This document shows positions 372 through 61,900 of a stretch of 64,000 bases of DNA, one piece after another. Position 1 is the stretch's first letter. Each line of letters starts with the position of its first letter. The position numbers and the translations under genes were made by a program. The notes below the pieces were generated by a model that was given only the letters and a program-made list of their open reading frames with translations, made no database searches and was not told the origin of the DNA. Source of the DNA: Chitinophagaceae bacterium (GTDB taxonomy: Bacteria; Bacteroidota; Bacteroidia; Chitinophagales; Chitinophagaceae). Location of the stretch: contig JBGAFV010000001.1 in assembly GCA_044227095.1 (NCBI GenBank), forward strand, positions 1,625,127 to 1,689,126, given 5' to 3'.

Positions 372-833
372 ATGGAACAGGTAAAAGGCAATTACATAAA
401 ATCTCTGAAAATAGTGCACAATGCATTGTTGATTGGCCAATTTTTATTTCTTGCAGTTTCAATATTTATAGTAGCAAAAAATTCTCCGGTAGTTTCTTCT
501 TCATTAGACAAAACACTGCAGGTAGCTGCTTTAGTAATTTCGTTTGCTGCTGTATTTGCATCTGCAAACATTTTTAAAAACAGGTTAGCTGCTATAAGTT
601 CAATAACTGAGGTTACAGATAAAGGCAATCAATACCGTGCAGCAAATATTATAAAATGGTCTTTAATAGAAGGTCCGGCAATCTTTGTAATTATTTGTTT
701 CTTTATAACCGGTAACTATTCTTTTGCGGCATTGGCATTGGCATTGATTATTTATTTTTTCTTATCGGGGCCTTCTAAAATAAAAATGATGCTGCAAACG
801 CAGTTGAGTGAGCAGGAGATAGATGATTTATAA
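372..833 (+). CDS. hypothetical multi-pass membrane protein
   Basis: ATG at 372 follows the upstream stop at 365-367. The product has hydrophobic helices (LLIGQFLFLAVSIFIVA, AIFVIICFFITG) and no recognisable domain. Confidence 0.4.
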   Translation: MEQVKGNYIKSLKIVHNALLIGQFLFLAVSIFIVAKNSPVVSSSLDKTLQVAALVISFAAVFASANIFKNRLAAISSITEVTDKGNQYRAANIIKWSLIEGPAIFVIICFFITGNYSFAALALALIIYFFLSGPSKIKMMLQTQLSEQEIDDL

Positions 834-1220
834 TAATTGTTCCGCAGGATCCCAGAATAGGTTTTTAAAATCTACTACAGTATCGTTTTTTACTTTTATA
901 CCTTCTTTCTTTAAGAGCATTTCCATTTTATTTCCACCAAAATGATGTTTGCCGCTAAGCATGCCATTGCGATTAACCACCCTGTGCGCAGGTACTTTTG
1001 GTTTTGCACTACCGGCACCATTCATTGCCCAGCCCACCATGCGTGCAGATAATTTTGTACCAAGACAATTGGCGATAGCTCCGTAAGATGTTACCCTGCC
1101 TTTTGGTATTTGCCTCGCAACTTCATACACCAGTTCAAAAAAAGAATGTTCTTTTTTACCTGAAGGATTTACCGCCACCAGTTTTTCTTTTACAACTACT
1201 TTCTTTTTTTTGATGGACAT
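828..1220 (-). CDS. MGMT-family DNA-binding protein (methylated-DNA-protein-cysteine methyltransferase C-terminal-like, Atl-like)
   Basis: Motif VARQIPKGRVTSYGAIANCLG...PAHRVVNRNG is typical of the Ada/Ogt C-terminal DNA-binding fold. The product is short (130 aa). Confidence 0.65.
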   Translation of the reverse strand: MSIKKKKVVVKEKLVAVNPSGKKEHSFFELVYEVARQIPKGRVTSYGAIANCLGTKLSARMVGWAMNGAGSAKPKVPAHRVVNRNGMLSGKHHFGGNKMEMLLKKEGIKVKNDTVVDFKNLFWDPAEQLL

Positions 1221-1257
1221 TTCTAAATTATTTTAGTGAATTGCTTATGCAACAAAT

Positions 1258-1310
1258 GGAACGCAGATTTTTATGATTTTTACAACGGGTGCTGATTTTT
1301 TTATGAACTC
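1258..1310. repeat. solo GGAACGCAGATTTTTATGATT module plus degenerate second copy
   Basis: Matches the terminal inverted-repeat module of the 12771 and 37231 elements. Confidence 0.45.
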
Positions 1311-6300: not shown

Positions 6301-6548
6301 TCGCTAGTCGTTTGATGCAACAGAATTGATTTTTTGGAGCATACATTAGATCTGTATTCAACATCGTTGTGTCACTCACTTGTACTGCGGTAATACTGCT
6401 GATCAATTAATCGACCACTCCGCTTTGTCATGCTGTAATCATCTCGTGAAAATAGAACCGCAAGAATTGTAAGCAATAACATCATTGCCATTCCTTTACT
6501 ACCGACTACGAACTATCGACTCCTTACTCCCGACTGTCGACTCACGTC

Positions 6549-7628: not shown

Positions 7629-7761
7629 TGAAATGATTTTTATCGTGAATCGCCAATTGTGATACATGAGACGACAGTCGTGAGGTCTATCCGAAAATTC
7701 AAGCGGCTTTGCAGTTTTACTCACGTTTGCCGTCTCCCGACTAAAGACTCCTGACTCCCGA

Positions 7762-8895
7762 CTACTTCAACTTCCTTCCCTTCCATTCATAACTTTTAAA
7801 CTGTCCTAAAAAACCAGAAACAACAATATAAAAGATGTGCAATGGTTGTAACAAAAATAACCATGGCACTAATGACTGTTGTCCAAAAAATGCAGCCACA
7901 TCTTTTACAAAAAATACTTCCATAAAAAATTTTGCTACCCACAGCAATGCAAAGAATATTAATGCAAGCTTGCTGAAAATACCCATCAGCAAAAAACAAA
8001 AAATAAAAAGATTGGTGAGGTACACCAGCAATAGCGCAAAGAAAATTGCTTTCTGGTTATAATGCGTTGCTTTGCTTGCCCAGCGTATGCGTTGCTGAAA
8101 AAATGCTGCCCATGTTGCCGCAGGTAATGTTGTTACAATAGCTTCTGGCGATTTTATAAACCCAAGTTGTTCCGGGTATTGTTTTGAAATTTTATTCATC
8201 AGCAACATATCATCGCCACTGGCAATATTGTCAATACCAGTAAAACCATTTACCTGGTGAAACACTTGCTTTTCGTATGCAAGGTTAGCGCCATTGCACA
8301 TGTTGTGAAAGCGTTTAAAAACTGTACCTGCAGTTATGCCCTGCATGGTTAAAAAATCAAGTGCCTGGAATTTAGATAAAACCGAAGATCCATCTTTAAT
8401 TTTTACTGGTGCTGCTATAAAAACGTTGTTTGATTGCTGGTGAAAAGCCGCAATGTTTAATAGCCATGATGGCCCGGCAATACAATCTGCATCAGTAGTT
8501 ACAATTAATGTGCCGCTGGCCATCTCAATCCCTGCTTCTATTGCTCTTTTTTTTGGTGCAGTATTTTTATCAAGCGGAGGAAGTTTTGTACAAATGATTT
8601 GTATCCCTTCATAAGCAATACTATTCGCTATTGCAAAAGTATTATCAATAGAATTATCATCTATTACTATTACCTGGTAAAGATGAGCAGGATAATTTTG
8701 TTTGCAGATACTATGTAAACATGCTGCTATATTTTTTTCTTCATTCCTTGCAGGAACAATAACTGATATTTTTATTGAAGGTGTAAATGAACCAGCGCTA
8801 AAACCAGGAACTTCTTTCCACCAGCTACTATAAAACTGAAACAGAATGCCATACGCCAGCAATAAAAAAACAGCTATGTAAAAAGAAATTATCAT
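7762..8895 (-). CDS. family-2 glycosyltransferase with integral membrane domain
   Basis: VIVPARNEEKNIAACL...VIVIDDNSIDNT...TTDADC (DxD) is the GT-A signature. N- and C-terminal TM helices are present. ATG is at 8895. Confidence 0.8.
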   Translation of the reverse strand: MIISFYIAVFLLLAYGILFQFYSSWWKEVPGFSAGSFTPSIKISVIVPARNEEKNIAACLHSICKQNYPAHLYQVIVIDDNSIDNTFAIANSIAYEGIQIICTKLPPLDKNTAPKKRAIEAGIEMASGTLIVTTDADCIAGPSWLLNIAAFHQQSNNVFIAAPVKIKDGSSVLSKFQALDFLTMQGITAGTVFKRFHNMCNGANLAYEKQVFHQVNGFTGIDNIASGDDMLLMNKISKQYPEQLGFIKSPEAIVTTLPAATWAAFFQQRIRWASKATHYNQKAIFFALLLVYLTNLFIFCFLLMGIFSKLALIFFALLWVAKFFMEVFFVKDVAAFFGQQSLVPWLFLLQPLHIFYIVVSGFLGQFKSYEWKGRKLK

Positions 8896-12739: not shown

Positions 12740-12770
12740 TTATATTTCGCTTTCGCGAATAATAATATTT

Positions 12771-12852
12771 GAACGCAGATTTTTATGATGGTTAAGATGA
12801 TTATGGTTCATGTATCATAATCTTTTGGAAACAGTCATAATTATCTGCGTTC
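12771..12852. repeat. MITE-like element with terminal inverted repeats GAACGCAGATTTTTATGAT / ATCATAA(TT)ATCTGCGTTC
   Basis: The ends are reverse complements of each other, and related copies occur at 1258, 24803, 37231/37427, 51577 and 61500. Confidence 0.5.
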
Positions 12853-13039
12853 TTTTTTTATGGATGGATGGGCTGCAGATTCGCAGATTAATTTGTAACC
12901 ATCTCATAAACATATTTATGATAATCAGCGTCCATTAACCTACTTTTTTAACACATAGGCGCAGTAGTAACAATAGAAACATAATAGTTGTAAGCCTATT
13001 TGAAACTATGTTTCTATGGTGCTATGTAGTAAATATTGC

Positions 13040-13201
13040 CTGAACCAGGATTTATGGGATTAATGGATTCTTAGGATGCTATTGAAAACTCCTTAAACGC
13101 TGTAAAAAACTCACACAACTCTGTGGTAAAAGAAATAATCTATGCATCTGCGGCTAAAGTATATCATAAGCTATCATCATACTCATAAAAATCAGTGTTC
13201 C
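13040..13201. repeat. composite intergenic repeat (modules shared with 24803-24925 and 51577-52010)
   Basis: Contains AAAACTCCTTAAACGCTGTAAAAAACTCACACAACTCTGTGGTAAA, AATCTATGCATCTGCGGCTAA and ATCATAAAAATCAGTGTTCC modules. Confidence 0.5.
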
Positions 13202-13258
13202 ACTTTTTTATCAACGCATCTGCTGCCAAAGATTATTTTTTCTTTTACCTTCATTGCA

Positions 13259-19476: not shown

Positions 19477-19688
19477 ATTGTAAATTGTTAAGGAGGCGTA
19501 AAATTAGGCAATATTTGATAGTCAATAGTCAGTAGTTAAATAGTCTATAGCCAGTATTCAATTGTTAACAGATAAATAATCGTAAAGCGATAGCCAGAAA
19601 TCAGTTTTGACTAAAGACTCACGGCTGTTGGCTACAGACTGCAGACTATCGACTTTTCTCTATTACTTTGCATTAATTCCAAAACATT

Positions 19689-24802: not shown

Positions 24803-24925
24803 TGGAACGCTGATTTTTATGATTATGATGCTCTCTTTTACCACAGCGTTGTATGAGTTTTTCAAAGCGTTAAAAGAGTTTTTCTTTGCGTTCGCTACAT
24901 CTTTGCGTCCTTGCGTAAAACAATA
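24803..24925. repeat. composite intergenic repeat, inverted copy of the 13084/51660 module
   Basis: GGAACGCTGATTTTTATGATT followed by the reverse complement of CACGCAAAGGACGCAA...AAAAACTCC...CTGTGG. Confidence 0.5.
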
Positions 24926-26625: not shown

Positions 26626-26868
26626 GCAAAGTGAACAAAGAGAAAAGGGAATCAATAGCGGGGAAATAAAAACGCATACTGCAGCTCAATAAATATATCT
26701 TGTACAAGTGTGCGACGCAACAATGTTGATAGCATTTAGGTGGTTGGTTCAAAAAAAAAATTAAGTTTTTGATGAGATGATTATCAAAAAGCGTAAAAGA
26801 TTTTACTTGAGAAATGCTAAAAGAAGATCATAGTAATTAATCCATATCTCCCCTTTAGGGGCGGGGGC

Positions 26869-29821: not shown

Positions 29822-31267
29822 TTATTCACCTTCCACTGCATTTTTTTCTTTCTTCCATGATCTGTGTTTGGCGCCATCCATCTTTACAATTTTTGGCGTA
29901 AACCTTCCTACAATGTCTACCAAGGATTTCTGAGATTGCATTACTACTTCAATATCCTTGTACGCAAAAGGCGATTCGTCTAATCCGCCACCAAGCAGTT
30001 TTACACCAAACTTTTTCAGTTCGTCTTTAAACTGTTTATCTGTTACAGATGCAATGGCACGTGTACGGCTCATTTTTCTTCCTGCACCATGCGATGCAGA
30101 ATTTACAGATGCAGCCTCTCCTTTACCTTTTACAATAAAACCATCTGCCGTCATAGAACCAGGTATAATACCTAATACATCTTTGCCTGCAGGTGTAGCA
30201 CCTTTACGATGAACAATCACATCACGCCCTTCCCATTTTTCTTTCCACGCAAAGTTGTGGTGGTTTTCTACCATCTTCATTGCTTTACGCCCTAATTGTT
30301 TGGCTATCTTGGCATGTATTACATGATGACATGCAGAAGCGTAATCACCCGCAAGGTTCATCGCATTCCAGTATTCTATACCTTCTTCTTCATCTAAACT
30401 TAACCATGCAAGGTTTTTTGCTTCTTGTGGTAAACGTCTTTTGCTAATAGCCAACTTTGTATAGTGGTTAGCAATGTTTGCACCCAATGCCCTGGAACCA
30501 GAATGCGTTAGAAAACCAACATACTTTCCTGCACTAATACCAAGCATTGCATCTTTTTCTGCCACTTCAATAATACCAAACTCAGCAAAGTGGTTACCAG
30601 AACCAGAAGAACCCAATTGTTTCCATACACGGCCATGCATTTTCTTAAGCAATGGCAATTGGTAAAACAGTTCATTGTCCATCACTTCATGATCAGCTGC
30701 TCTATCAAACTGCGCACCGCTTCCAAATAATGTGGCTTCACTTAATTCTCTCGCAAAAAATGCTTCCTTGTCTGTAAGATCTTTTGGGTTGATATCAAAA
30801 ATACTTAAACACATTCTGCAACCAATATCCACGCCTACTCCATAAGGAATAACCGAGTTCTCTGTCGCCAGCACTCCACCTATCGGTAATCCATAGCCGC
30901 TGTGGGCGTCTGGCATTAATGCACCGGCTATACTCACGGGAAGTTTTGCTGCCTGGTACATCTGGTGCATAGCGCCTTCTTCAATATGTTCCTGCCCAAA
31001 TACATTAAACTGTATACCGTTTTGGTTCAGCGATATTTCTGCACCCTCTGTTGCAGCCTTAGGTATTAATTGCTGCGCAATCAAACCCAGCACAGCATCA
31101 TTTTCATATTCTACCGGCGCAGCCAGTATTTTTTTTAATAGTTCCATCACTTCTTCTTTTCCACTGTGTTTATAATTCTTTTCCATCACATTCATAGCAA
31201 TGCTTACTACCGGTCCTTCCGGGAAGCCAATTGCCCTGATTTCTTTTCCTGATATTTTTAGTTTCAT
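29822..31267 (-). CDS. rtcB: RNA-splicing ligase RtcB (3'-phosphate/5'-OH RNA ligase)
   Basis: Full-length 481 aa. Metal and GTP-binding motifs PDAHSGYG, GSGNHF, NHHNFAW, SHGAGR and the catalytic His region are present. Confidence 0.9.
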   Translation of the reverse strand: MKLKISGKEIRAIGFPEGPVVSIAMNVMEKNYKHSGKEEVMELLKKILAAPVEYENDAVLGLIAQQLIPKAATEGAEISLNQNGIQFNVFGQEHIEEGAMHQMYQAAKLPVSIAGALMPDAHSGYGLPIGGVLATENSVIPYGVGVDIGCRMCLSIFDINPKDLTDKEAFFARELSEATLFGSGAQFDRAADHEVMDNELFYQLPLLKKMHGRVWKQLGSSGSGNHFAEFGIIEVAEKDAMLGISAGKYVGFLTHSGSRALGANIANHYTKLAISKRRLPQEAKNLAWLSLDEEEGIEYWNAMNLAGDYASACHHVIHAKIAKQLGRKAMKMVENHHNFAWKEKWEGRDVIVHRKGATPAGKDVLGIIPGSMTADGFIVKGKGEAASVNSASHGAGRKMSRTRAIASVTDKQFKDELKKFGVKLLGGGLDESPFAYKDIEVVMQSQKSLVDIVGRFTPKIVKMDGAKHRSWKKEKNAVEGE

Positions 31268-32554: not shown

Positions 32555-32937
32555 TTTCTTATATTTAAAGTTTTCAATTATTTGTAAAAAAGTCAGCACT
32601 GCCTGCACTCCGTAATCACGGAAGCGGGTTTTAGAAAATGTTTTTTGTAACAGTTTACCAGGGAGTGTTCGCCTGATAAAGTGAAACGAGCTGCATTCCT
32701 GCTGCCAGCCTGCAGATGCTTACTGAGTTGCACACTTCCAAAACTTTCCCTGTCAAAAAAGGTACTCGTTCTTTCAAGTCTTTCTTGCTGCATTGATGCA
32801 GCAAAAAAGAGTCATAGGCCGTGTGCCCGCAGGCAGCACCAACTTTTTTTATCTGGTCACCTTTTTTAAGAAGCGGTGGACTTCTCCTTTTGAAGCATTA
32901 TCAGTGCTTTGCTAGACCATTTAGCTTCACCGCCAAA

Positions 32938-33052
32938 GGCGATGACAGGATTCGAACCTGCATATTTCTGTTGCTCTACCACTGAGCTATTCCGTTTGCA
33001 ACGGAAAGAGGAATTGAACCCCTGACCCACAGGTTATGGAGGGCATTGCACC
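32938..33052 (-). ncRNA. candidate tRNA-mimic ncRNA (YrlA/Y-RNA-like tRNA-like module) upstream of the SPFH-rtcB genes
   Basis: The minus strand reads ...AGGGG-TTCAATT-CCTCT (T-arm) TTCCGTT-GCA-AACGGAA (acceptor-like 7-bp stem closed by a 3-nt loop) TA-GCTC-AGTGGTAGA-GAGC (D-arm with G18G19)... The ends GGTGCAATG / CATCGCC can pair. There is no anticodon arm. A second T-arm-like hairpin CAGG-TTCGAAT-CCTG lies near the 3' end. Confidence 0.45.
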
Positions 33053-33230
33053 ATTGAAATAACAGCATACAGAAAGTTTACTAACTCTGCACTATGGTGT
33101 TTTTGAAACACACATCCGGTTTACTGTCAACAGGCAGTTGCCCTTCTTGCCGTTAAGCAAGCTTTTGTGTTGAACTAGTCAACAATTTATTTATCTAAAG
33201 AATTTTCGGAGCATTGTATTATGGAAGAAG

Positions 33231-34604: not shown

Positions 34605-34679
34605 TGGTGCCTTAAGGAATCGAACCTTAATTGCTGGTTCTTCAAACCAGTGCAATAGAACCATCTCTGCCAAAGCACC
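34605..34679 (-). tRNA. tRNA-Phe (GAA)
   Basis: Manual fold: acceptor GGTGCTT/AGGCACC, D-arm GCAG...TTGC, anticodon stem CTGGT/ACCAG with loop TTGAAGA, T-arm TAAGG-TTCGATT-CCTTA, discriminator A. Confidence 0.7.
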
Positions 34680-34684
34680 ATTTT

Positions 34685-34776
34685 GTCTGAACCAGGATTT
34701 TGAAGGATTTTTTGGATTAATAGGATGTACACTTCTCTGCTAAATCTTTTAAATCATTTTAAATCCTGGTTTAGAT
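34685..34776. repeat. ~95-bp palindromic unit immediately 5' of tRNA-Phe (family also at 35110-35204, 35465-35637, 13040-13080)
   Basis: Terminal inverted repeats GTCTGAACCAGGATTTTGAAGGATTT ... AAATCCTGGTTTAGAT. Confidence 0.6.
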
Positions 34777-34876
34777 TTTTTTTGTTATTAACTGTAGTAA
34801 CACTATTAAGCATCGTTGCGTCGCACACTTCAGCTTTTTGTTATTTATTCATCATATCTCCCAATATAGTCTTCTT

Positions 34877-34948
34877 GCGGATGAAGAAAGGTTCGAACTT
34901 TCAACCTGGGGCTTAACAAGCCACTGCTCTGCCATTGAGCTATTCATC
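34877..34948 (-). tRNA. tRNA-Asn (GTT)
   Basis: Manual fold: acceptor GGATGAA/TTCATCC, D-arm GCTC-AATGGCA-GAGC, anticodon loop TTGTTAA (one mismatch in the anticodon stem), T-arm GAAAG-TTCGAAC-CTTTC, discriminator G. Confidence 0.6.
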
Positions 34949-34951
34949 CAT

Positions 34952-35025
34952 GAGTCGCGCAGAAGATTCGAACTTCTTTATTCCGGTTTGCAGCCGGATG
35001 CATACAGCCATGTCTGCCAGCGCGA
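34952..35025 (-). tRNA. tRNA-Cys (GCA), unusual D-arm
   Basis: Acceptor GTCGCGC/GCGCGAC, anticodon stem TCCGG/CCGGA with loop CTGCAAA, T-arm AGAAG-TTCGAAT-CTTCT, discriminator T. The D-region is 21 nt with a non-canonical stem. Confidence 0.55.
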
Positions 35026-35033
35026 CTTTTATT

Positions 35034-35109
35034 GTTGGCCCGGTGAGACTCGAACTCACAACTCCCGGTGTAAAAGACCGGTACTCTGCATCCAATTGAG
35101 TTACGAACC
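35034..35109 (-). tRNA. tRNA-Lys (TTT)
   Basis: Acceptor TGGTTCG/CGGGCCA (two G-U pairs), D-arm ACTC...GAGT, anticodon stem CCGGT/ACCGG with loop CTTTTAC, T-arm GTGAG-TTCGAGT-CTCAC, discriminator A. Confidence 0.65.
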
Positions 35110-35204
35110 AGTGTCTGAACCAGGATTTTGAAGGATTTTTCAGATTAATAAGATGTAAATTTTTCTGACGAATCTTTTTAATCCTTTTAAATCCTGGTTC
35201 AGAT
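35110..35204. repeat. ~95-bp palindromic unit immediately 5' of tRNA-Lys
   Basis: GTGTCTGAACCAGGATTTTGAAGGATTT ... AAATCCTGGTTCAGAT. It is ~85% identical to the 34685-34776 unit. Confidence 0.6.
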
Positions 35205-35211
35205 ATTTTTT

Positions 35212-35306
35212 GTACGACTTTCAGAATCGAACTGAATACGCCAAACTTATGTTTACCTCTCAGAAAGAGCAGGAAGCTTAGCATGTTGCCATTACACCCA
35301 GCCGTA
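35212..35306 (-). ncRNA. 95-nt tRNA-like element with canonical acceptor, D-arm and T-arm but no anticodon stem-loop (tRNA pseudogene or tRNA-mimic RNA)
   Basis: Acceptor TACGGCT/AGTCGTA, D-arm GTGT-AATGGCA-ACAT, T-arm TTCAG-TTCGATT-CTGAA. The 46-nt internal segment contains no 5-bp/7-nt-loop anticodon arm in any register (checked manually). Confidence 0.4.
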
Positions 35307-35309
35307 TTG

Positions 35310-35381
35310 GTTGACTTCGGGACTTGAACCCTGTTCTTCACATTCACAGTGTGACACTTTACCAGTTAAGCTAAAGCCAAC
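35310..35381 (-). tRNA. tRNA-His (GTG)-like, with G-1:C73 and irregular T-arm
   Basis: G-1 + TTGGCTT / AAGTCAA + C73 gives the 8-bp His-type acceptor. D-arm GCTT-AACTGGTA-AAGT, anticodon stem TCACA/TGTGA with loop CTGTGAA. The T-stem has only 3-4 bp (GGG-TTCAAGT-CCC). Confidence 0.5.
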
Positions 35382-35386
35382 GTTTG

Positions 35387-35459
35387 TTGTTAAGGATAGA
35401 TTCGAACTATCATCATCAGTGTCAAAGACTGATATGCTGAGCCATTGCACCACTTAACA
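35387..35459 (-). tRNA. tRNA-Gln (TTG)
   Basis: U1-A72 acceptor TGTTAAG/CTTAACA, D-arm GTGC-AATGGCTCA-GCAT, anticodon stem TCAGT/ACTGA with loop CTTTGAC, T-arm GATAG-TTCGAAT-CTATC. Confidence 0.7.
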
Positions 35460-37216: not shown

Positions 37217-37230
37217 ATTGTTTTATTTAT

Positions 37231-37427
37231 GGAACGCTGATTTTTATGATTGTTAAGATGAACTATGATTTACTTCGTGCCAGTACTTAATTTGCGAATC
37301 TGCGCCCAAGGTTTTTTTCAATAGCGATTTGTTGTACAAGTGAGTGACACAACAATGTTTAATAGCGAACTGCTGCCTGCCAAACAAAAAATCTTACTAA
37401 TCATAATCATCATAAAAATCTGCGTTC
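37231..37427. repeat. MITE-like element with GGAACGCTGATTTTTATGATT / ATCATAAAAATCTGCGTTC terminal inverted repeats enclosing a TTGTTGTACAAGTGAGTGACACAACAA palindrome
   Basis: Located between the MurU-like and kinase genes. Both end modules match the 12771-12852 element. Confidence 0.5.
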
Positions 37428-37452
37428 TATTCTTCAAATGCGAAGCATGCAT

Positions 37453-48260: not shown

Positions 48261-48285
48261 GATTTCTAATTTTTTGTTTTTACAA

Positions 48286-48856
48286 CCACGGAGACAGGGA
48301 GGACACAAAGATGCACAGCGATTTTTTATACAGACCCGGAGGGGAGAAAAGTACACGGAGTTAGCATTAATTGAAGATCATTCGTTTGATTCCATCTTTC
48401 ATTAATGGAGTATGAAAGTTTAAAATATAGCCTAGGCGCTTGCCTGTTAATCTTAAATAACTTAATAATTGCGCTTCCCAAAGAATACAATAATCTTCCT
48501 GGGCTTTTAATTCAATAATAATTAAGTTGTCTATAAGAATACCAACCCGCAATCCACCTTCTATTATCATTGTTTCATAAACTATATTCACGCACTTTTG
48601 TTTTTCAAAAGGGATATTTCTTTTAGCCAGTTCGTAACAAAAACATTTCTCATAAATGCTTTCCAATAAACCAGCGCCTAATTTTTTGTGAACTGTAATG
48701 GCAATGTTTACAATTTGTCCTGTTAACCATCTTTCTCTTTCAGTAATAGGTTTAAAACCATTTTGCTGAATTTCATTTGTATCAGTTTTTAGCGTCATTT
48801 TCTAATAAAGTTTTATCATCTCCCTTTGCATCTTTGTGTCCTCTCTGTCTCTGTGG
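48286..48856. mobile_element. GxxExxY-gene cassette bounded by ~30-bp inverted repeats
   Basis: 48286-48315 CCACGGAGACAGGGAGGACACAAAGATGCA versus the reverse complement of 48827-48856, CCACAGAGACAGAGAGGACACAAAGATGCA (27/30 identical). A related fragment is at 50150-50190. Confidence 0.5.
48367..48798 (-). CDS. GxxExxY-family (PDDEXK_3-like) protein
   Basis: GAGLLESIYEKC contains GxxExxY. ~140 aa, which is typical of this family. Confidence 0.7.
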   Translation of the reverse strand: MTLKTDTNEIQQNGFKPITERERWLTGQIVNIAITVHKKLGAGLLESIYEKCFCYELAKRNIPFEKQKCVNIVYETMIIEGGLRVGILIDNLIIIELKAQEDYCILWEAQLLSYLRLTGKRLGYILNFHTPLMKDGIKRMIFN

Positions 48857-48864
48857 TTATGTCT

Positions 48865-50055: not shown

Positions 50056-50266
50056 AGAAGCGAGCAATATTTTTTTAGCCAAACAGTTGCGCACTATTCA
50101 GCATTGTTGCGTCGCACACTTGTACAGTATATCAGCAGGCGAGTTTTTTTGAACCACAGCGACACAGAAAACACAGAGAAGCACGGAGCTTTGATCAACG
50201 CATTGTATCATATAAGCAAATGCTATGTGCTTATATTTTTCTATGATTCTATGTGGTAAATAATTT

Positions 50267-51562: not shown

Positions 51563-51576
51563 TTTTTAGAAGACAT

Positions 51577-52010
51577 GGAACGCAGATTTTTATGATTGTT
51601 ATGATTGACGCGGATTGCATTTATAATCTGCGCATTTGCGGCTAATTTTTATAGTTTCACGCAAAGGACGCAACAAAGCAGCGAACGCAAAGAAAAACTC
51701 CTTAAACTCTGTGAAAAAACTCACACAACTCTGTGGTAAATTAAATTGTCGCGCAGGGCTAGCAGAGTAAAAGAGGTAATCTGCGCATTTGCGGCTAATT
51801 TTTATAGTTTCACGCAAAGGACGCAACAAAGCAGCGAACGCAAAGAAAAACTCCTTAAGCTCTGTAAAAAAACTCATACGACTCTATGGTAAATTAAATT
51901 GTCGCGTAGATCTAGCAGAGTAAAAAAGGTAATCTGCGCATCTGCGGCTAAGATCATTTTCCGCAAAAAAATCATAGCTAATCAGCTTAATCCTAAGAAT
52001 CTGTGTTCCA
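51577..52010. repeat. tandem array (2 x ~145 bp plus flanking modules) of the modular intergenic repeat family
   Basis: Unit AATCTGCGCATTTGCGGCTAATTTTTATAGTTTCACGCAAAGGACGCAACAAAGCAGCGAACGCAAAGAAAAACTCCTTAAACTCTGTGAAAAAACTCACACAACTCTGTGGTAAATTAAATTGTCGCG... repeated at 51638 and 51778. Bounded by GGAACGCAGATTTTTATGATT and ATCCTAAGAATCTGTGTTCC. Confidence 0.7.
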
Positions 52011-52066
52011 TTATTAACCTGCAGTTATTAAAACGTATATTTATATACTACCAAAAAACAACGGAC

Positions 52067-53359
52067 ATGAGAAAGATTTTCCTCTTTTCAGCATTTCTCC
52101 TATTTGCAATTGTAACATTAGCACAAAAAACAATTGCTATTAAATGCGGAAAGTTGCTGGATACACGTAGCGGACAAACACTCAGTAACCAGGTGATTGT
52201 TGTAAAAGTAAACATTATTGAAAGCATTACACCTGCTGCAAACTTTACACAAAAAACAGACAGTGTTATTGATCTTTCTGCTTATTACGTATTGCCTGGT
52301 TTAATAGATTGTCACACGCATGTATTGTTGCAGGGAGATATTACCAGTGAAGATTATGACGTGCAATTACTAAAAGAATCTATTCCTTACCGTACACTGC
52401 GGGCATCTCGCAGTGCAAAGATTGCATTGGAAAATGGTTTTACCAGTATCCGCGATTTAGAAACAGAAGGAGCATTATATGCAGATGTAGATGTAAAAAG
52501 AGCAATCAACAATCATGTTATACCTGGTCCGCGTATGCAAGTGGCTACACGTTCAATCAATTCGTATGGGCATTACCCCATTCTTCCTAAAGAAACCAAT
52601 TGGGAATTGGATTGGCCAAAAGGTGTACAGGAAATTAATGGTGCAGATGAAGCAAGAAAAGCAGTACGTGAACAATTGGCGCATGGCGCCGACTGGATAA
52701 AAATTTATGCAGACCGCGGTTATTATCGTTTGCCTGATGGTAGTTACAGAAGCCGCCCAAATTTTACTGCTGAAGAAATTAATGCTATTGGCGATGAAAC
52801 CATTCGTTCCGGAAAAAAGATGGCAGCACATGCTGTTACAAGAGACGGTATCATTGCTTCTATTAATGCTGGTGTTAGTACTATTGAGCATGGCTTTGGT
52901 ATGGATGATGAATGCATGCAACTAATGGTTAAGAGAAATATTTTCTGGTGCCCTACCATTTATGTTTGCGATTATGTAGCAGAGGGGAGGGCCAAAGCAG
53001 GATCGCCTATCAATAAATACTTTATGGAGAGTATGCCAGCTTTGTTTAAAAAAGCAATGAATGCAGGGATAAAAATTGCCTACGGCACAGATATCGGCGG
53101 CTATAGTTGGGATGAGCCACAGGCAAAAGATTTTGAATACATGGTAAAATATGGAATGACGAACATACAGGCTATTCAAACAGCTACAACAGTTGCTGCA
53201 CAATTGTTTGATATGGAAGGAAAGATTGGCGAAATAAAAACCGGTGCTTTTGCAGACATTATTGCAGTAAAACAAGATCCATTAAAAGATATAAAAGCAT
53301 TACAGCACGTACAATGGGTAATGAAAGATGGAGTAGTATATAAAGTTGCGGGGTATTAA
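52067..53359 (+). CDS. amidohydrolase-family metallohydrolase (secreted)
   Basis: LIDCHTHV is the metal-binding HxH, then ...HAV...TIEHGF...GTDIG. The signal-peptide start is at MRKIFLFSAF. Confidence 0.8.
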   Translation: MRKIFLFSAFLLFAIVTLAQKTIAIKCGKLLDTRSGQTLSNQVIVVKVNIIESITPAANFTQKTDSVIDLSAYYVLPGLIDCHTHVLLQGDITSEDYDVQLLKESIPYRTLRASRSAKIALENGFTSIRDLETEGALYADVDVKRAINNHVIPGPRMQVATRSINSYGHYPILPKETNWELDWPKGVQEINGADEARKAVREQLAHGADWIKIYADRGYYRLPDGSYRSRPNFTAEEINAIGDETIRSGKKMAAHAVTRDGIIASINAGVSTIEHGFGMDDECMQLMVKRNIFWCPTIYVCDYVAEGRAKAGSPINKYFMESMPALFKKAMNAGIKIAYGTDIGGYSWDEPQAKDFEYMVKYGMTNIQAIQTATTVAAQLFDMEGKIGEIKTGAFADIIAVKQDPLKDIKALQHVQWVMKDGVVYKVAGY

Positions 53360-53391
53360 TAGCATTGCATCAAAAATTCCCCTGCATTATT

Positions 53392-53765
53392 AATCTGCGC
53401 ATCTACGGCTAAGATTATTTTCTGCCAAAAAATCATACCTATCTGCTCAATCATAAATCAGCGTTCTATTCCTGTCTGCGCATCTGCGGCTAAGATTATT
53501 TTCTACAAAAAATCATAGCTAATCAGCTTAATCATAAAAATCTGCGTTCTATTCCTATCCGCACATCTGCGGCTAAGATTATTTTCTGCAAAAAAATCAT
53601 AGCTATCTGCTCAATCATAAAAATCTGCGTTCTATTCCTATCTGCGCATCTGCGGCTAAGAATTTCCCCGCGGATTTATACGGGCTTAAAATGCAGATGA
53701 ATTGCAAAAGACAATCATAGCTTATCTTAATAATCATGACAATCTGTGTTCTATCTCACTATTCA
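53392..53765. repeat. tandem array of ~80-bp units (about 4 copies) of the same repeat family
   Basis: Unit TCTGCGCATCTGCGGCTAAGATTATTTTCTGCAAAAAAATCATAGCTATCTGCTCAATCATAAAAATCTGCGTTCTATTCCTATC at ~53389, 53470, 53552 and 53632. Copies are contiguous, with no unique spacers. Confidence 0.7.
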
Positions 53766-54809: not shown

Positions 54810-55380
54810 ATTATCTGAAGTTGCTGCAAATAATTGCAGCAACTTTTTTATTTCACGCTAATGTATACGTATAGCCAAAAGATTCATTTAGTTCTTTGTC
54901 CTGCCAGCTGAAAACGTTAGACATTACCCGACTTTTTACCAATCAAAACCTTTATATGGAAATTCTCGTTTTTAAAACAGACGCACGAAACAAAAAACGT
55001 GTAAACGCTTTATCTAAGCATCTTGCAAACATACAGGGCATTATTAAGTGGAATGTAGATCTAAAAGATATTGATAATGTGCTGCGCATTGAAAGCGCAA
55101 GCCTTGCACCTGCCTTTATAGAAGAAAGTTTACAACACGCAGGATATTATTGTAAAGAATTGCAGGGATAAAGTATTTAAAAATTGGTTAGGTTTTTTAA
55201 CTGAATTCTTTTTGAGGTGCAAGCATTTGTTCTTTGTACATCATTGTTGCCCGTCCGAATGCCAGCCCGAAAGATTCATTCTGGCGGGGCTTAGCCGGGC
55301 GGACGTCGCACTCCTATAGTGCGAATCTTCACTGAGCCGTATTCGTCATGCAAAGGAGCAGCTCAAATAAGAAAACTCCT

Positions 55381-55425
55381 TTTACTCTGTGATAAAAAAT
55401 AATCTGCGAATCTGCGGCTAAAAAG
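55381..55425. repeat. solo copy of the AATCTGCG(A/C)ATCTGCGGCTAA module
   Basis: TACTCTGTGATAAAAAATAATCTGCGAATCTGCGGCTAAAAAG. Confidence 0.5.
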
Positions 55426-59872: not shown

Positions 59873-61402
59873 ATGAAAAAATTTTACTTATTAATAAAAC
59901 AGGTAATTATTATTGAGACAGCAATTTTGCTGAGTTTATCTAATGATGGTAACGCACAATCATGTACACCGCAGGGTAACCAAACAGCCTATGGCACAAG
60001 CAATACATGGATTGGATATGTATACCAGGGTAAAAATTTTGACACCTATAAAGGATATATTAATGAAGGCGGCAGCACGGCAAATTTTGATGAAAGCTTT
60101 ACAGGGGCGCAGGTAAATTTTGCTACCAATGGTTGCCCGGTGTATACAGACAACTTCAGCGTTCGTTTCAAACTTACAAAAACATTTACGGCAGCAAATT
60201 ATACAATAACAGTTGGTGGAGATGATGGTTATCGTTTAAGCCTTGATGGCGGCGCTACATGGGCAATCAATAACTGGAACGATCATTCTTATACTACTTC
60301 TTCTTATACTGCTAATTTAAGTGGCTCTTATAATATGGTGCTTGAGTTTTATGAGAACGGCGGAGATAACAGGGTTTCATTTACTGCAGTTGCCAATTGT
60401 ACAGGAAACGGAGATCCTTCAGCGTATGGTACCAATAATGTATGGATTGGTTATTTATACCAGGGAATGAATTTTGATGCCTACAAAGGATATGTAAACA
60501 AAGGAACTGCCAGCAATTCAAATTTCGATGACAACTTTGGTGGTGGTAGTTCGCCTGTTACAGTAAATACAAGTAACTGTTCTATTCAAACGCAGGCTTT
60601 CAGTGCTCGTTATCGTTTGAAAAAAACACTTGCTGCCGGTAAATATGTAATTACAGTTGGTGGCGATGATGGTTACCGTTTAAGTATTGATGGCGGTGCT
60701 ACATGGGTTATTAACAAATGGGGTGACCAATCTTATAATGCTACCACCATTACACCCACACTCAGCGCTGGCACTTACAATTTTGTACTGGAGTATTACC
60801 AGAATGGCGGTTATTCACGTGTTAGCTTTGATATGAGCGTTACTTCTTTGCTTCCTGTAAAATTAACCAGCTTTACTGCTGCTTTTACTGCGCCTTCAAA
60901 AGCACAGCTTAACTGGACAAGCAGTGAAACAAGCGGGTTTAAAAACTTTACCGTGCAACGCAGTAATGATGGAAACAATTTCAGCAACTTAGAAGTGATA
61001 GCGGCACAAAACAGCAACAGCAGCTTACCACAATCGTATGCTTATACCGATGCGCAGGCTGCAGGTAATGATCTTTATTATCGTTTAGCTATGACCGATA
61101 TAGACGGAACAGTTACATATTCTTCTGTAATCCATTTGCAGAATACGGTTGTTAGCGGAATAAAAATTTATCCAACATTAGTAGAGAGCAACAATGTTTA
61201 TATAGAATCAGGTAAATCAATCAATCATTCAAAAGCCATTGTTTATGACATGAATGGTAAAAAGCTAACCGAAAAATTGCTGGAAAATATTCAGGGCCGC
61301 CAGGCGATTACGCTGAATGGCGTTGTAAAAAGCGGTTCTTATATAGTTAGTGTAACAGATGGCAACAACCTGCTTGCAAAACAAATTATCATCGTAAAAT
61401 AA
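59873..61402 (+). CDS. secreted protein with two tandem PA14-like domains and T9SS C-terminal sorting domain
   Basis: Two ~160-aa internal repeats (AYGTSNTWIGYVYQGKNFDTYKGYINEG / AYGTNNVWIGYLYQGMNFDAYKGYVNKG...VITVGGDDGYRLS). The C-terminus is KIYPTLVESNNVYIE...GSYIVSVTDGNNLLAKQIIIVK. Confidence 0.65.
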   Translation: MKKFYLLIKQVIIIETAILLSLSNDGNAQSCTPQGNQTAYGTSNTWIGYVYQGKNFDTYKGYINEGGSTANFDESFTGAQVNFATNGCPVYTDNFSVRFKLTKTFTAANYTITVGGDDGYRLSLDGGATWAINNWNDHSYTTSSYTANLSGSYNMVLEFYENGGDNRVSFTAVANCTGNGDPSAYGTNNVWIGYLYQGMNFDAYKGYVNKGTASNSNFDDNFGGGSSPVTVNTSNCSIQTQAFSARYRLKKTLAAGKYVITVGGDDGYRLSIDGGATWVINKWGDQSYNATTITPTLSAGTYNFVLEYYQNGGYSRVSFDMSVTSLLPVKLTSFTAAFTAPSKAQLNWTSSETSGFKNFTVQRSNDGNNFSNLEVIAAQNSNSSLPQSYAYTDAQAAGNDLYYRLAMTDIDGTVTYSSVIHLQNTVVSGIKIYPTLVESNNVYIESGKSINHSKAIVYDMNGKKLTEKLLENIQGRQAITLNGVVKSGSYIVSVTDGNNLLAKQIIIVK

Positions 61403-61485: not shown

Positions 61486-61900
61486 TAGCCGCAGATTTGC
61501 AGATTAATATTGAACGCAGATTTTTATGATGGAGCAGATAGCTATGATTTTTTAGGTGCTTTTAGCTGCAGATGCGCAAATTATTCTTTTACCATATAGA
61601 ACATAGTTTCACATAGGCTTAAACTATTGTGTTTCTATCTTTCCTATTGTTTCTATGTGGTGAAAAAATAGATTTAAATTGAACGCAGATTTTTTATGAT
61701 GGAGCAGAGAGCTATGATTTTTTAGGTACTTTTTAGCTGCAGATGCGCAAATTATTCTTTTACCATATGGAAATATAGTTTCACATAGGCTTCAGCTATT
61801 GTGTTTCTATCTTTCCTATTGTTTCTATGTGGTGAAAAAATAGATTTACATTGAACGCAGATTTTTATGAGTAAGTAGATAGTTATCAGCCGCAAATTAA
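61486..61900. repeat. tandem array (2 x ~185 bp + partial third) of the modular repeat family
   Basis: Unit TTGAACGCAGATTTTTATGATGGAGCAGATAGCTATGATTTTTTAGGTGCTTTTAGCTGCAGATGCGCAAATTATTC...TTTCACATAGGCTT...GTGGTGAAAAAATAGATTTA at 61500 and 61683. Flanked by TAGCCGCAGATTTGCAGATT-type modules. Confidence 0.7.

What the first reader, a model, noticed from the sequence alone, without database searches (positions are those of the whole stretch)
51577..53765. Dense modular MITE-like repeat family with tandem arrays flanking the amidohydrolase gene
One family built from three modules recurs at ≥10 loci in 64 kb. The modules are (A) GAACGCAGATTTTTATGAT and its inverse ATCATAAAAATCTGCGTTC, (B) AATCTGCGCATCTGCGGCTAA, and (C) CACGCAAAGGACGCAACAAAGCAGCGAACGCAAAG…AAAAACTCACACAACTCTGTGG. 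Loci: 1258, 12771-12852 (a clean 82-bp element with terminal inverted repeats), 13040-13201, 24803-24925 (inverted), 37231-37427, 51577-52010 (2 x 145 bp tandem), 53392-53765 (4 x 80 bp tandem), 55381-55425, 61486-61900 (2 x 185 bp tandem). The amidohydrolase gene (52067-53359) is bracketed by arrays on both sides. This density suggests an active or recently active non-autonomous element, or a recombination hotspot.
Basis: seen in the sequence. Interest (0 to 1): 0.6.

Follow-up and report, generated by a model that had tools for sequence, protein, structure and literature searches.

The report
Palindromic repeats tied to GxxExxY nucleases
The dense intergenic repeats are real, and they look like gene-less copies of a very widespread, apparently undescribed class of hairpin-shaped selfish DNA elements whose full-length versions carry a small nuclease gene (GxxExxY), much as REP repeats go with their RAYT transposase.

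Summary
Module A is one arm of a near-perfect palindrome, most often 78-79 nt long. Its exact 19-mer occurs in at least 114 genome stretches (about 4 expected by chance), across Chitinophagaceae, Cytophagales and Ignavibacteria. It is therefore not a one-genome MITE.

In every A-type case examined, the same arms bracket a 130-aa GxxExxY/PDDEXK_3 nuclease gene. In 72 GxxExxY loci chosen by protein alone, 57 have inverted flanking arms, against 2 of 74 control ORFs. The arms are built of 9-10-nt sub-repeats, and arm type tracks protein similarity. Modules B and C, and the repeat around the window's own GxxExxY gene (48367-48798), are other arm types.

The arrays beside the amidohydrolase are lineage-specific tandem expansions of arms. 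A relative with about 79% nucleotide identity differs at these sites.

I found no target-site duplication of 3 bp or more, no DDE transposase, no Rfam match and no base-pair covariation.

Best reading: these are REPIN/BIME-like non-autonomous elements serviced by a PD-(D/E)XK nuclease. That the nuclease mobilises them is inference. I found no description of this in the searchable literature.

The parts
51576..51616 (+). A-type left arm (TGGAACGCAGAT TTTTATGAT TGTTATGAT ...), 15 nt after the stop of the umuC-like gene
   Evidence: An orthologous A left arm lies after the same gene in relative 5N019.
51624..51951 (+). Tandem array, 153 bp x 2.1. Each unit is module B, then C1 (CACGCAAAG-type units), then C2 (CTCTGTG-type units), then a spacer. 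The array occupies the 'loop' between the A arms.
51952..52010 (+). A-type right arm (diverged), about 55 nt upstream of the amidohydrolase ATG
   Evidence: An orthologous right arm lies about 45 nt upstream of the amidohydrolase in 5N019.
53393..53661 (+). Tandem array, 83 bp x 3.3. Each unit is module B followed by an A-type right arm, all in one orientation. The units do not fold as hairpins.
53662..53751 (+). Diverged terminal copy of the 83-bp unit, ending in an A right arm (53733-53751)
61486..61886 (+). Array of left arms (B-left, A-left, B-left, D module), 172 bp x 2.2, downstream of gene 59873-61402. At the orthologous site 5N019 has a single 144-nt A-type element.
12767..12856 (+). 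Complete canonical A-type hairpin element (core 12771-12852)
12867..13202 (+). Mosaic of arms filling the rest of the spacer: B/A-like hybrid (12867-12937), D module (12940-13030), E-type fragment (13033-13075), C2 (13085-13136), B (13137-13157), A right arm (13158-13202)
1257..1305 (+). Solo A-type left arm upstream of gene 828-1220(-)
24803..24925 (+). A-type left arm (24803-24837) followed by an inverted copy of module C, lying between divergent genes
37229..37430 (+). 197-nt element bounded by inverted A arms, with an unrelated repeat (37334-37389) inside. It is absent at the orthologous site in 5N019.
55372..55422 (+). C2 fragment plus module B, lying between convergent genes
48367..48798 (-). 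GxxExxY / PDDEXK_3 nuclease gene (143 aa). It has Gly at the near-invariant catalytic Asp position.
48284..48321 (+). F-type arm (ACCACGGAG...CACAAAG units) downstream of the GxxExxY gene
   Evidence: (I12)
48821..48858 (+). F-type arm upstream of the GxxExxY gene, 89% complementary to 48284-48321. It shares the ACCACAGAG terminus with module C2.
   Evidence: (I12)
34686..34775 (+). E-type hairpin (GAACCAGGAT / TTTGAAGGAT units) abutting a tRNA gene
35114..35203 (+). E-type hairpin abutting a tRNA gene

Best explanation
The repeats are ORF-less (non-autonomous) members of a large class of palindromic intergenic elements. Each arm is a short array of 3-4 tandem 9-10-nt sub-repeats. In type A the arm reads RGAACGCWGAT, TTTTATGAT, nnTTAWGAT and so on. 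The full-length versions carry a roughly 130-aa GxxExxY (PF13366, Cas4/RecB-like PD-(D/E)XK) nuclease gene in the loop.

What is shown:
- The same arms occur both with and without the gene.
- Arm type follows protein type.
- Arms are conserved as sequence, not as base pairs.
- Occupancy of orthologous spacers varies between related genomes.

What is inferred:
- The nuclease binds the phased sub-repeats as a multimer and cuts at the arms. It thereby propagates or maintains the gene-less copies in trans, as RAYT does for REP/REPIN.
- The tandem arrays around the amidohydrolase arise secondarily, by slippage or unequal recombination between arms that are themselves internally repetitive.
For: (1) Canonical element. 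85 inverted A-arm pairs have a modal length of 78-79 nt and fold as strong hairpins.

(2) Spread. By my arithmetic, about 4 chance hits are expected in 596 Gb. About 11 stretches are from Ignavibacteria and about 12 from Cytophagales MAGs or isolates (my count of the record titles).

(3) A arms bracket GxxExxY ORFs in L072, L046, L005, L050 (frameshifted) and L059 (5'-truncated). They do so too in protein-selected loci L117, L119, L123 and L125 and L202, L212 and L213. Family membership was checked for three of these proteins with TIGR04256 and PF13366.

(4) Of 72 protein-selected GxxExxY loci, 57 have inverted flanking repeats that beat all 40 shuffles, and 64 do in either orientation. For control ORFs the figures are 2 of 74 and 5 of 74.

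(5) The best internal period of the arms is 9 or 10 nt in 79 of 104 arms, against 19 of 104 shuffled.

(6) Arm 5-mer similarity rises with protein identity (Spearman 0.25; 0 of 2000 permutations reach it). Distant GxxExxY subfamilies have CACAGAG/CACAAAG arms.

(7) Extra gene-less arm copies of the locus's own type: 9 observed against 0.05 expected, in 5 of 22 loci, three of them with non-A arms.

(8) Within-element pairing (92.3%) equals the shuffled value (92.5%), and variable positions are often mismatched. This points to sequence recognition rather than structure.

(10) Turnover. Different element families, or none, occupy the same spacers in related genomes. Arm arrays differ in copy number: 1 against 3 next to the orthologous GxxExxY gene, and 12.9 hairpin copies in L004.
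Against: - No A-type GxxExxY gene lies in the window, and I could not read the rest of the 5.18-Mb genome. The cognate enzyme for the window's A copies is therefore assumed.
- The window's own GxxExxY has Gly at the catalytic Asp.
- Unrelated four-helix-bundle (Avd/23S-IVS-protein-like) ORFs sit in analogous armed palindromes, so the ORFs could be passengers.
- The link between arm similarity and protein similarity could reflect plain physical linkage.
- GxxExxY elements sit at the same operon positions across genera. This looks more like long-term residence than active transposition.
- No transposition intermediate, target-site duplication or clean empty site was obtained.
- No biochemical data exist for the family.
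Confidence: 0.55

Rival explanations
1. The armed palindromes spread or persist by some other route, such as host recombination or replication functions, or an unidentified enzyme. On this view the small ORFs (GxxExxY, four-helix-bundle) are secondary passengers. They home into the hairpin loops, or are sheltered there, without mobilising the gene-less copies.
For: - Two unrelated ORF families occur in the same kind of element.
- The canonical 78-79-nt form is very uniform and has no ORF remnant.
- GxxExxY insertions are stably inherited at fixed operon junctions.
Against: - Arm type tracks GxxExxY subfamily.
- Every A-type GxxExxY examined has A arms.
- Arms are more conserved than the ORF. 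The outer 19-20 nt are identical, while the whole L046 and L072 elements are about 69% identical.
- Decaying ORFs between intact arms (L050, L059) look like a parent-to-derivative series.
Confidence: 0.25
2. The arms are arrays of binding sites for a conserved host DNA-binding protein (for example in nucleoid organisation or regulation), kept by selection for a host function rather than as selfish DNA.
For: - The 19-mer is conserved across phyla.
- GAT motifs are phased at about one helical turn.
- Conservation is of sequence, not structure.
- Elements persist at orthologous sites.
Against: - Presence and absence, and replacement by other families, occur at orthologous spacers.
- There are many mutually different arm families, each tied to its own nuclease variant.
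- Array copy number varies.
- Module B is lineage-specific.
Confidence: 0.08
3. The elements act mainly as RNA. Long stems in transcripts would serve as terminators, RNase III processing sites or stabilisers (as with REP or the 23S rRNA intervening sequences), or they would encode small RNAs.
For: - The hairpins are very stable.
- They lie inside operons and between tRNA genes.
- Module B gives two weak terminator-like hits.
Against: - There is no covariation, and pairing is no better than shuffled.
- The array units do not fold (z about -1).
- No Rfam match appears even at E <= 0.5.
- Terminator-like sites are not enriched (4 against 2.2 +/- 1.4).
- Elements occur in all gene-orientation contexts.
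Confidence: 0.07
4. The elements are classical MITEs: internally deleted copies of an insertion sequence, moved by its DDE transposase.
For: They have terminal inverted repeats, are small, are multi-copy and lie in intergenic DNA.
Against: - There is no direct target duplication of 3 bp or more. Only a flanking AT appears, and being self-complementary it equally fits an extension of the palindrome.
- Among the 85 arm pairs, the longest (431-468 nt) hold either repeats or a GxxExxY ORF, never a transposase.
- I recognised no transposase-like protein by eye among the window ORF translations, but these were not scanned against Pfam.
- The arms are sub-repeat arrays.
Confidence: 0.05

Closest known systems
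REP / REPIN / BIME elements with their RAYT (REP-associated tyrosine transposase) genes in Proteobacteria
   Same: - Short extragenic repeats occur singly, as inverted pairs that form hairpins, and as mosaic or tandem clusters of variable copy number.
- The same repeats flank, in inverted orientation, a small nuclease-type gene.
- Repeat type goes with gene type.
- The gene is often a stable, vertically inherited resident.
   Different: - The associated protein is a PD-(D/E)XK (Cas4/RecB-like) GxxExxY protein, not an HUH/Y1 IS200-like transposase.
- Each arm is an array of 9-10-nt direct sub-repeats, not a 20-40-nt imperfect palindrome with a GTAG or CGTC head.
- One arm type is conserved across Bacteroidota and Ignavibacteria.
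- The gene sits inside the palindrome's loop.
Bacterial MITEs and modular intergenic repeats (Correia/NEMIS, ERIC, BOX, RUP)
   Same: They are small, ORF-less, intergenic and multi-copy. They have terminal inverted repeats, a modular build (BOX) and tandem module expansion.
   Different: There is no target-site duplication of 3 bp or more, no related DDE insertion sequence, and a far wider taxonomic range. The parent-like form encodes a nuclease of a different superfamily.
23S rRNA intervening sequences carrying the S23p / four-helix-bundle ORF (Leptospira, Coxiella); recalled from my own knowledge
   Same: A long inverted-repeat stem encloses a small ORF. The same four-helix-bundle family occurs here in analogous armed palindromes.
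   Different: The elements here lie in protein-gene spacers, not in rRNA helices. No RNA-level excision is shown. The ORF tied to module A is a nuclease.
Free-standing homing endonuclease genes
   Same: A small selfish nuclease gene is inserted in intergenic spacers of conserved operons and flanked by its own recognition-like sequences.
   Different: Hundreds of gene-less copies of the flanks are dispersed in the genome. The arms are multi-site arrays. No cleavage or homing has been shown.

Membership tests
Classical MITE (DDE-transposase derived) | Terminal inverted repeats, small size, no ORF, multi-copy | tested here: met
Classical MITE (DDE-transposase derived) | Direct target-site duplication of fixed length | tested here: not met
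   78 elements gave no identical flanks of 3 nt or more at any of offsets 0-4. Only an AT dinucleotide is shared (37 of 78), and being self-complementary it equally fits an extension of the palindrome.
Classical MITE (DDE-transposase derived) | A full-length insertion sequence with the same termini encoding a DDE transposase | tested here: not met
   Among the 85 arm pairs in about 0.88 Mb, the only ORF found between a pair of A arms is GxxExxY. The sample is limited.
REP/REPIN-RAYT | The repeat is a 20-40-nt imperfect palindrome with a GTAG or CGTC head | tested here: not met
   Arms are arrays of direct 9-10-nt sub-repeats beginning RGAAC or AGCC. A single arm is not palindromic.
REP/REPIN-RAYT | Repeats flank a RAYT (IS200/IS605 Y1 HUH) gene in inverted orientation | tested here: not met
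   The flanked gene is PF13366/TIGR04256, a PD-(D/E)XK protein. The inverted flanking itself is met.
REP/REPIN-RAYT | Extragenic singlets, inverted doublets and tandem or mosaic clusters | tested here: met
GxxExxY-associated armed palindromes (class proposed here) | Arms identical in type to those bracketing GxxExxY genes | tested here: met
   This holds for module A. For modules B and C/F the evidence is resemblance of arm type only.
GxxExxY-associated armed palindromes (class proposed here) | A cognate GxxExxY gene of the same arm type in the same genome | not testable with these tools
   The window holds only an F-type copy. The rest of the 5.18-Mb source contig could not be read, and it is not among the 120 hits listed.
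CRISPR array | Short direct repeats separated by unique spacers of similar length | tested here: not met
   Whole 83-, 153- and 172-bp units repeat at 88-94% identity, with no unique spacers.
Known structured RNA family (Rfam 15) | A match to a covariance model | tested here: not met
   No hit on any module at gathering score or at E <= 0.5. There is also no covariation.

The most novel reading that the evidence does not exclude
GxxExxY proteins number 32,285 clusters at 50% identity, and no function is given for them in the papers I could search. They may be the enzymes of a previously unrecognised superfamily of prokaryotic mobile or selfish elements. In this model a minimal Cas4/RecB-like PD-(D/E)XK nuclease recognises arrays of about 10-bp sub-repeats in the two arms of a palindrome. 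It propagates both itself and swarms of gene-less hairpins, a PD-(D/E)XK counterpart of the RAYT-REPIN system. One arm type would have been kept almost unchanged across Bacteroidota and Ignavibacteria.
Probability: 0.4. Interest if true: 0.85.

Novelty: new variant of a known kind. Interest (0 to 1): 0.7.

Why it matters
- It would give a function and a DNA partner to a very large family of small nucleases for which the searchable literature gives no function.
- It would explain much of the repetitive intergenic DNA of Chitinophagaceae and other FCB-group genomes. This DNA also breaks short-read assemblies.
- It would add a second, mechanistically different example of the 'domesticated nuclease plus swarm of palindromic repeats' lifestyle, known so far from RAYT/REPIN.
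- The arms sit within a few bases of start and stop codons inside operons, so they probably also shape transcript processing and gene-order change.
- A compact nuclease that reads a programmable-looking array of 5-bp cores would be of interest to enzymologists.

Tried and rejected
- Rfam gave nothing on the repeats at gathering score or at E <= 0.5.
- RNAalifold and pair counting gave no covariation.
- The promoter/terminator scan showed no enrichment.
- Literature searches for the exact repeat strings, GxxExxY, PF13366 and TIGR04256/TIGR02436 found no description. The PD-(D/E)XK survey lists PF13366's function as 'Unknown'.
- The plasmid collection gave no match. Viral contigs gave only 2 hits, so there is no sign of a phage or plasmid vector.
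- The PDB sequence search found no solved relative.
- I tried to find an A-type GxxExxY from the source genome among the homologues. The 5,183,733-bp contig was not among the 120 listed.
- A 12-mer 'repeat coverage' of intergenic against coding DNA was uninformative, because chance coverage is about 20% in both.
- The idea that the inverted A arms at 51578 and 52008 bound one mobile unit is weakened. In 5N019 an ordinary 300-aa lipoprotein-like gene lies between the orthologous arms, which there look like two separate elements.
- The search for a clean empty site and target-site duplication failed, because the orthologous spacers are too diverged.
Full report
**1. Observation**

The repeats are real.
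- Module A (GAACGCAGATTTTTATGAT) has 14 matches with up to 3 mismatches in 64 kb, against 0.08 expected.
- Module B has 12 matches against 0 expected.
- Module C has two close copies, plus diverged or inverted copies at 13085-13140, 24827-24912 and 55372-55396.
- Tandem Repeats Finder reports three arrays: 51624-51951 (153 bp x 2.1), 53393-53661 (83 bp x 3.3) and 61501-61870 (172 bp x 2.2).
- All copies lie between ORFs.
- A 3.4-kb metagenome contig is 100% identical across the amidohydrolase and its downstream array, and its ends fall in or beside repeat-rich spacers.

**2. Anatomy of module A**

Module A is the outer part of one arm of a palindrome.
- In the window and in 114 fetched 8-kb genome stretches, 85 plus/minus arm pairs have a sharp length mode at 78-79 nt.
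- They fold into hairpins of -34 to -46 kcal/mol, with z between -7.6 and -11.
- Each arm reads (A)ATRGAACGCWGAT, TTTTATGAT, nnTTAWGAT, nnnnTAWGAT. These are 3-4 units of 9-10 nt, each ending in GAT.
- The 83-bp array units downstream of the amidohydrolase do not fold (z about -1). They are head-to-tail runs of 'right arms' (module B followed by an A right arm).
- The 172-bp units at 61.5 kb are runs of 'left arms' plus a further module.
- The 153-bp units sit between an A left arm (51576) and an A right arm (52010).

**3. Distribution**
By my arithmetic, about 4 chance hits are expected in 596 Gb.
- The hits are mostly in Chitinophagaceae (Ferruginibacter, Sediminibacterium, Segetibacter, Pinibacter and others).
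- By my count of the record titles, about 12 are in Cytophagales and about 11 in Ignavibacteria/Melioribacteraceae MAGs. There are single hits in Saprospiraceae and Flavobacteriaceae.
- The element is almost absent from viral contigs (2 hits) and absent from plasmids.
- Module B was found in none of the other genomes' fetched DNA, so it is lineage-specific.
- An Ignavibacteriales MAG carries at least 12.9 tandem copies of a 111-bp unit made of a whole A hairpin plus a 16-nt spacer. Arrays are therefore a recurrent property of the family.

**4. The link to a gene**
- The two longest arm pairs outside the window (L072, 468 nt; L046, 462 nt) enclose a 130-aa ORF. It is a GxxExxY protein (TIGR04256, E = 4e-40; PF13366 PDDEXK_3).
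- Three more A-armed copies were in the fetched loci: L005, L050 (frameshifted) and L059 (5'-truncated, from a Melioribacteraceae MAG).
- The window itself encodes a GxxExxY protein (48367-48798, minus strand). It is bracketed by a different 38-nt inverted repeat, 89% complementary. That repeat shares its ACCACRGAG terminus with module C2.

I then sampled GxxExxY loci by protein alone.
- The scan confirmed 570 metagenome loci, of which the best 80 were kept.
- Of the 72 with usable flanks, 57 have an inverted repeat between the flanks that beats all 40 shuffles, and 64 do in either orientation. For other ORFs of 90-180 aa in the same loci the figures are 2 of 74 and 5 of 74.
- The arms again consist of tandem sub-repeats. 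The best internal period is 9 or 10 nt in 79 of 104 arms, against 19 of 104 shuffled.
- The arms fall into many types: GAACGCGGAT/GACGCGGAT, GGACACAGAT/GAACACAGAT, AGCCACAGAT/GAGCACAGAT (like module B), GAACGCAAAT, GGACAGGAT and others.
- Arm 5-mer similarity increases with protein identity (Spearman 0.25; 0 of 2000 permutations reach it).
- Arms with A-type units occur in four of these loci, all among those most similar to the A-type protein (60-66% identity). Not every locus in that identity range has them.
- Three further A-subfamily proteins, picked from a protein search, all have A arms.
- Gene-less copies of a locus's own arm type occur elsewhere in the same contig: 9 observed against 0.05 expected, in 5 of 22 loci, three of them with non-A arms.

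**5. Sequence or structure**
- In 41 aligned hairpins the outer arms are nearly invariant.
- At the variable positions the two arms are often non-complementary: 16 of 41 and 22 of 41 unpaired.
- Overall pairing (92.3%) equals that of shuffled partners (92.5 +/- 0.4).
- The outer 19-20 nt of the arms are identical where the whole L046 and L072 elements (ORF plus arms) are about 69% identical.
- This favours recognition of each arm as DNA sequence over selection for an RNA fold.
- Caveat: many left arms were ascertained through the exact 19-mer.
- No Rfam family matches any module.

**6. The protein**
- No solved relative was found by sequence.
- An AlphaFold model of an A-type member (pLDDT 88) has the alpha-alpha-beta-beta-beta-alpha-beta-beta PD-(D/E)XK core.
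- E31, D70, E80, K82 and Q94 are invariant or near-invariant.
- The window's copy has Gly at the D70 position, while its 86%-identical orthologue in MAG 5N019 keeps Asp.
- The family is very large: 32,285 clusters at 50% identity with E <= 1e-3. Many of the top-scoring representatives are tandem double domains.
- The literature I could search assigns it no function.

**7. Dynamics**

MAG 5N019 (JASGHP010000001.1) is syntenic with window 36.5-53.3 kb and 55.7-61.6 kb, at about 77-85% nucleotide identity.
- The 197-nt element at 37231-37427 is absent from the orthologous spacer.
- The A left arm after the umuC-like gene and the A right arm before the amidohydrolase are present in both genomes. 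Between them, 5N019 has a 300-aa lipoprotein-like gene, where the window has the 153-bp array.
- Downstream of the amidohydrolase, 5N019 has a hairpin of another family.
- Next to the orthologous GxxExxY gene, 5N019 has three tandem arm copies against one in the window.
- After the gene at 59873-61402, 5N019 has one 144-nt A element where the window has the 172-bp array.

In other Chitinophagaceae, the same junction between the 3-hydroxyanthranilate dioxygenase gene and the Amidohydro_2 gene holds different things:
- an A-armed GxxExxY;
- a four-helix-bundle ORF with AACGATAAAC-repeat arms;
- a gene-less GTTTAGAAA-repeat hairpin;
- or none of these.

At the same time, A-armed GxxExxY genes sit at the same operon junctions across genera: hemC/D-hemB, allantoicase-OHCU decarboxylase, and 3-hydroxyanthranilate dioxygenase-Amidohydro_2. 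They therefore behave as long-term residents.

**8. Mechanism**

Shown: shared arms with and without the gene, arm-protein correspondence, the sub-repeat architecture, sequence-level constraint, and turnover with array variation.

Inferred: the nuclease binds the helically phased 5-bp cores as a multimer and cuts at the arms, which drives or maintains the gene-less copies. The arrays would arise by slippage or unequal exchange between arms that are internally repetitive.

Against a DDE-type MITE: there is no target duplication of 3 bp or more and no transposase between arms.

The main open alternative is that the ORFs are passengers, because an unrelated four-helix-bundle family uses the same kind of element.

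**9. Comparison and novelty**

The closest analogue in behaviour is the REP/REPIN/BIME-RAYT system. Membership fails on both the repeat form and the enzyme class. I found no paper containing the repeat strings or linking GxxExxY to repeats. Subscription literature and database comments could not be checked. I rate it a new variant of a known kind.

Noticed in passing
window 32871-33054 (-): There is a weak Y RNA-like (YrlA, RF02553) match of 40 bits (E = 2e-5), below the gathering score of 69. An adjacent tRNA-like match lies beside it. An ORF at 29822-31267(-) nearby looks RtcB-like to me from its translation. This may be a diverged YrlA locus.
   Followed up: no
window 34686-34775 and 35114-35203: Two 90-nt hairpins of another arm type (GAACCAGGAT / TTTGAAGGAT units) lie 3-7 nt from tRNA genes, inside a cluster of six tRNA genes (34605-35459). 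They would be part of the tRNA precursor transcripts.
   Followed up: partly
window 6352-6381, 26695-26729, 34801-34830, 37334-37367, 50092-50132: A separate roughly 34-nt repeat family (CACTATTMAGCATYGTTGCGTCGCACACTTGTAC) occurs in both orientations. It is also present in the relative 5N019 (L199, about 2600-2700). Its nature is unexplained.
   Followed up: no
window 48367-48798 (-): The window's GxxExxY protein has Gly where more than 90% of aligned relatives, including its 86%-identical orthologue, have the catalytic Asp. It may be an inactivated copy.
   Followed up: partly
L004 6574-7998 (Ignavibacteriales MAG CAVVVS010000123.1): A satellite-like array holds at least 12.9 copies of a 111-bp unit, made of one complete A-type hairpin plus a constant 16-nt spacer. 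It runs to the end of the fetched stretch.
   Followed up: partly
L103 5224-5529; L152 535-774: Four-helix-bundle (Avd / 23S rRNA intervening-sequence-protein-like) ORFs are also bracketed by inverted arms of short tandem sub-repeats (AACGATAAAC; GTGACnnn). This is a second ORF family using the same element design.
   Followed up: partly
proteins P0241-P0250 and others: Many of the best-scoring GxxExxY representatives are 250-295 aa with two matched stretches (tandem double domains). This would fit a protein that works as a dimer.
   Followed up: no
window 6511-6537, 7739-7765, 19609-19656: Short GACTnnnGACT-type repeats (for example GACTAAAGACTCCTGACTCCCGACT) lie in intergenic spacers. They may be yet another arm family made of sub-repeats.
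   Followed up: no
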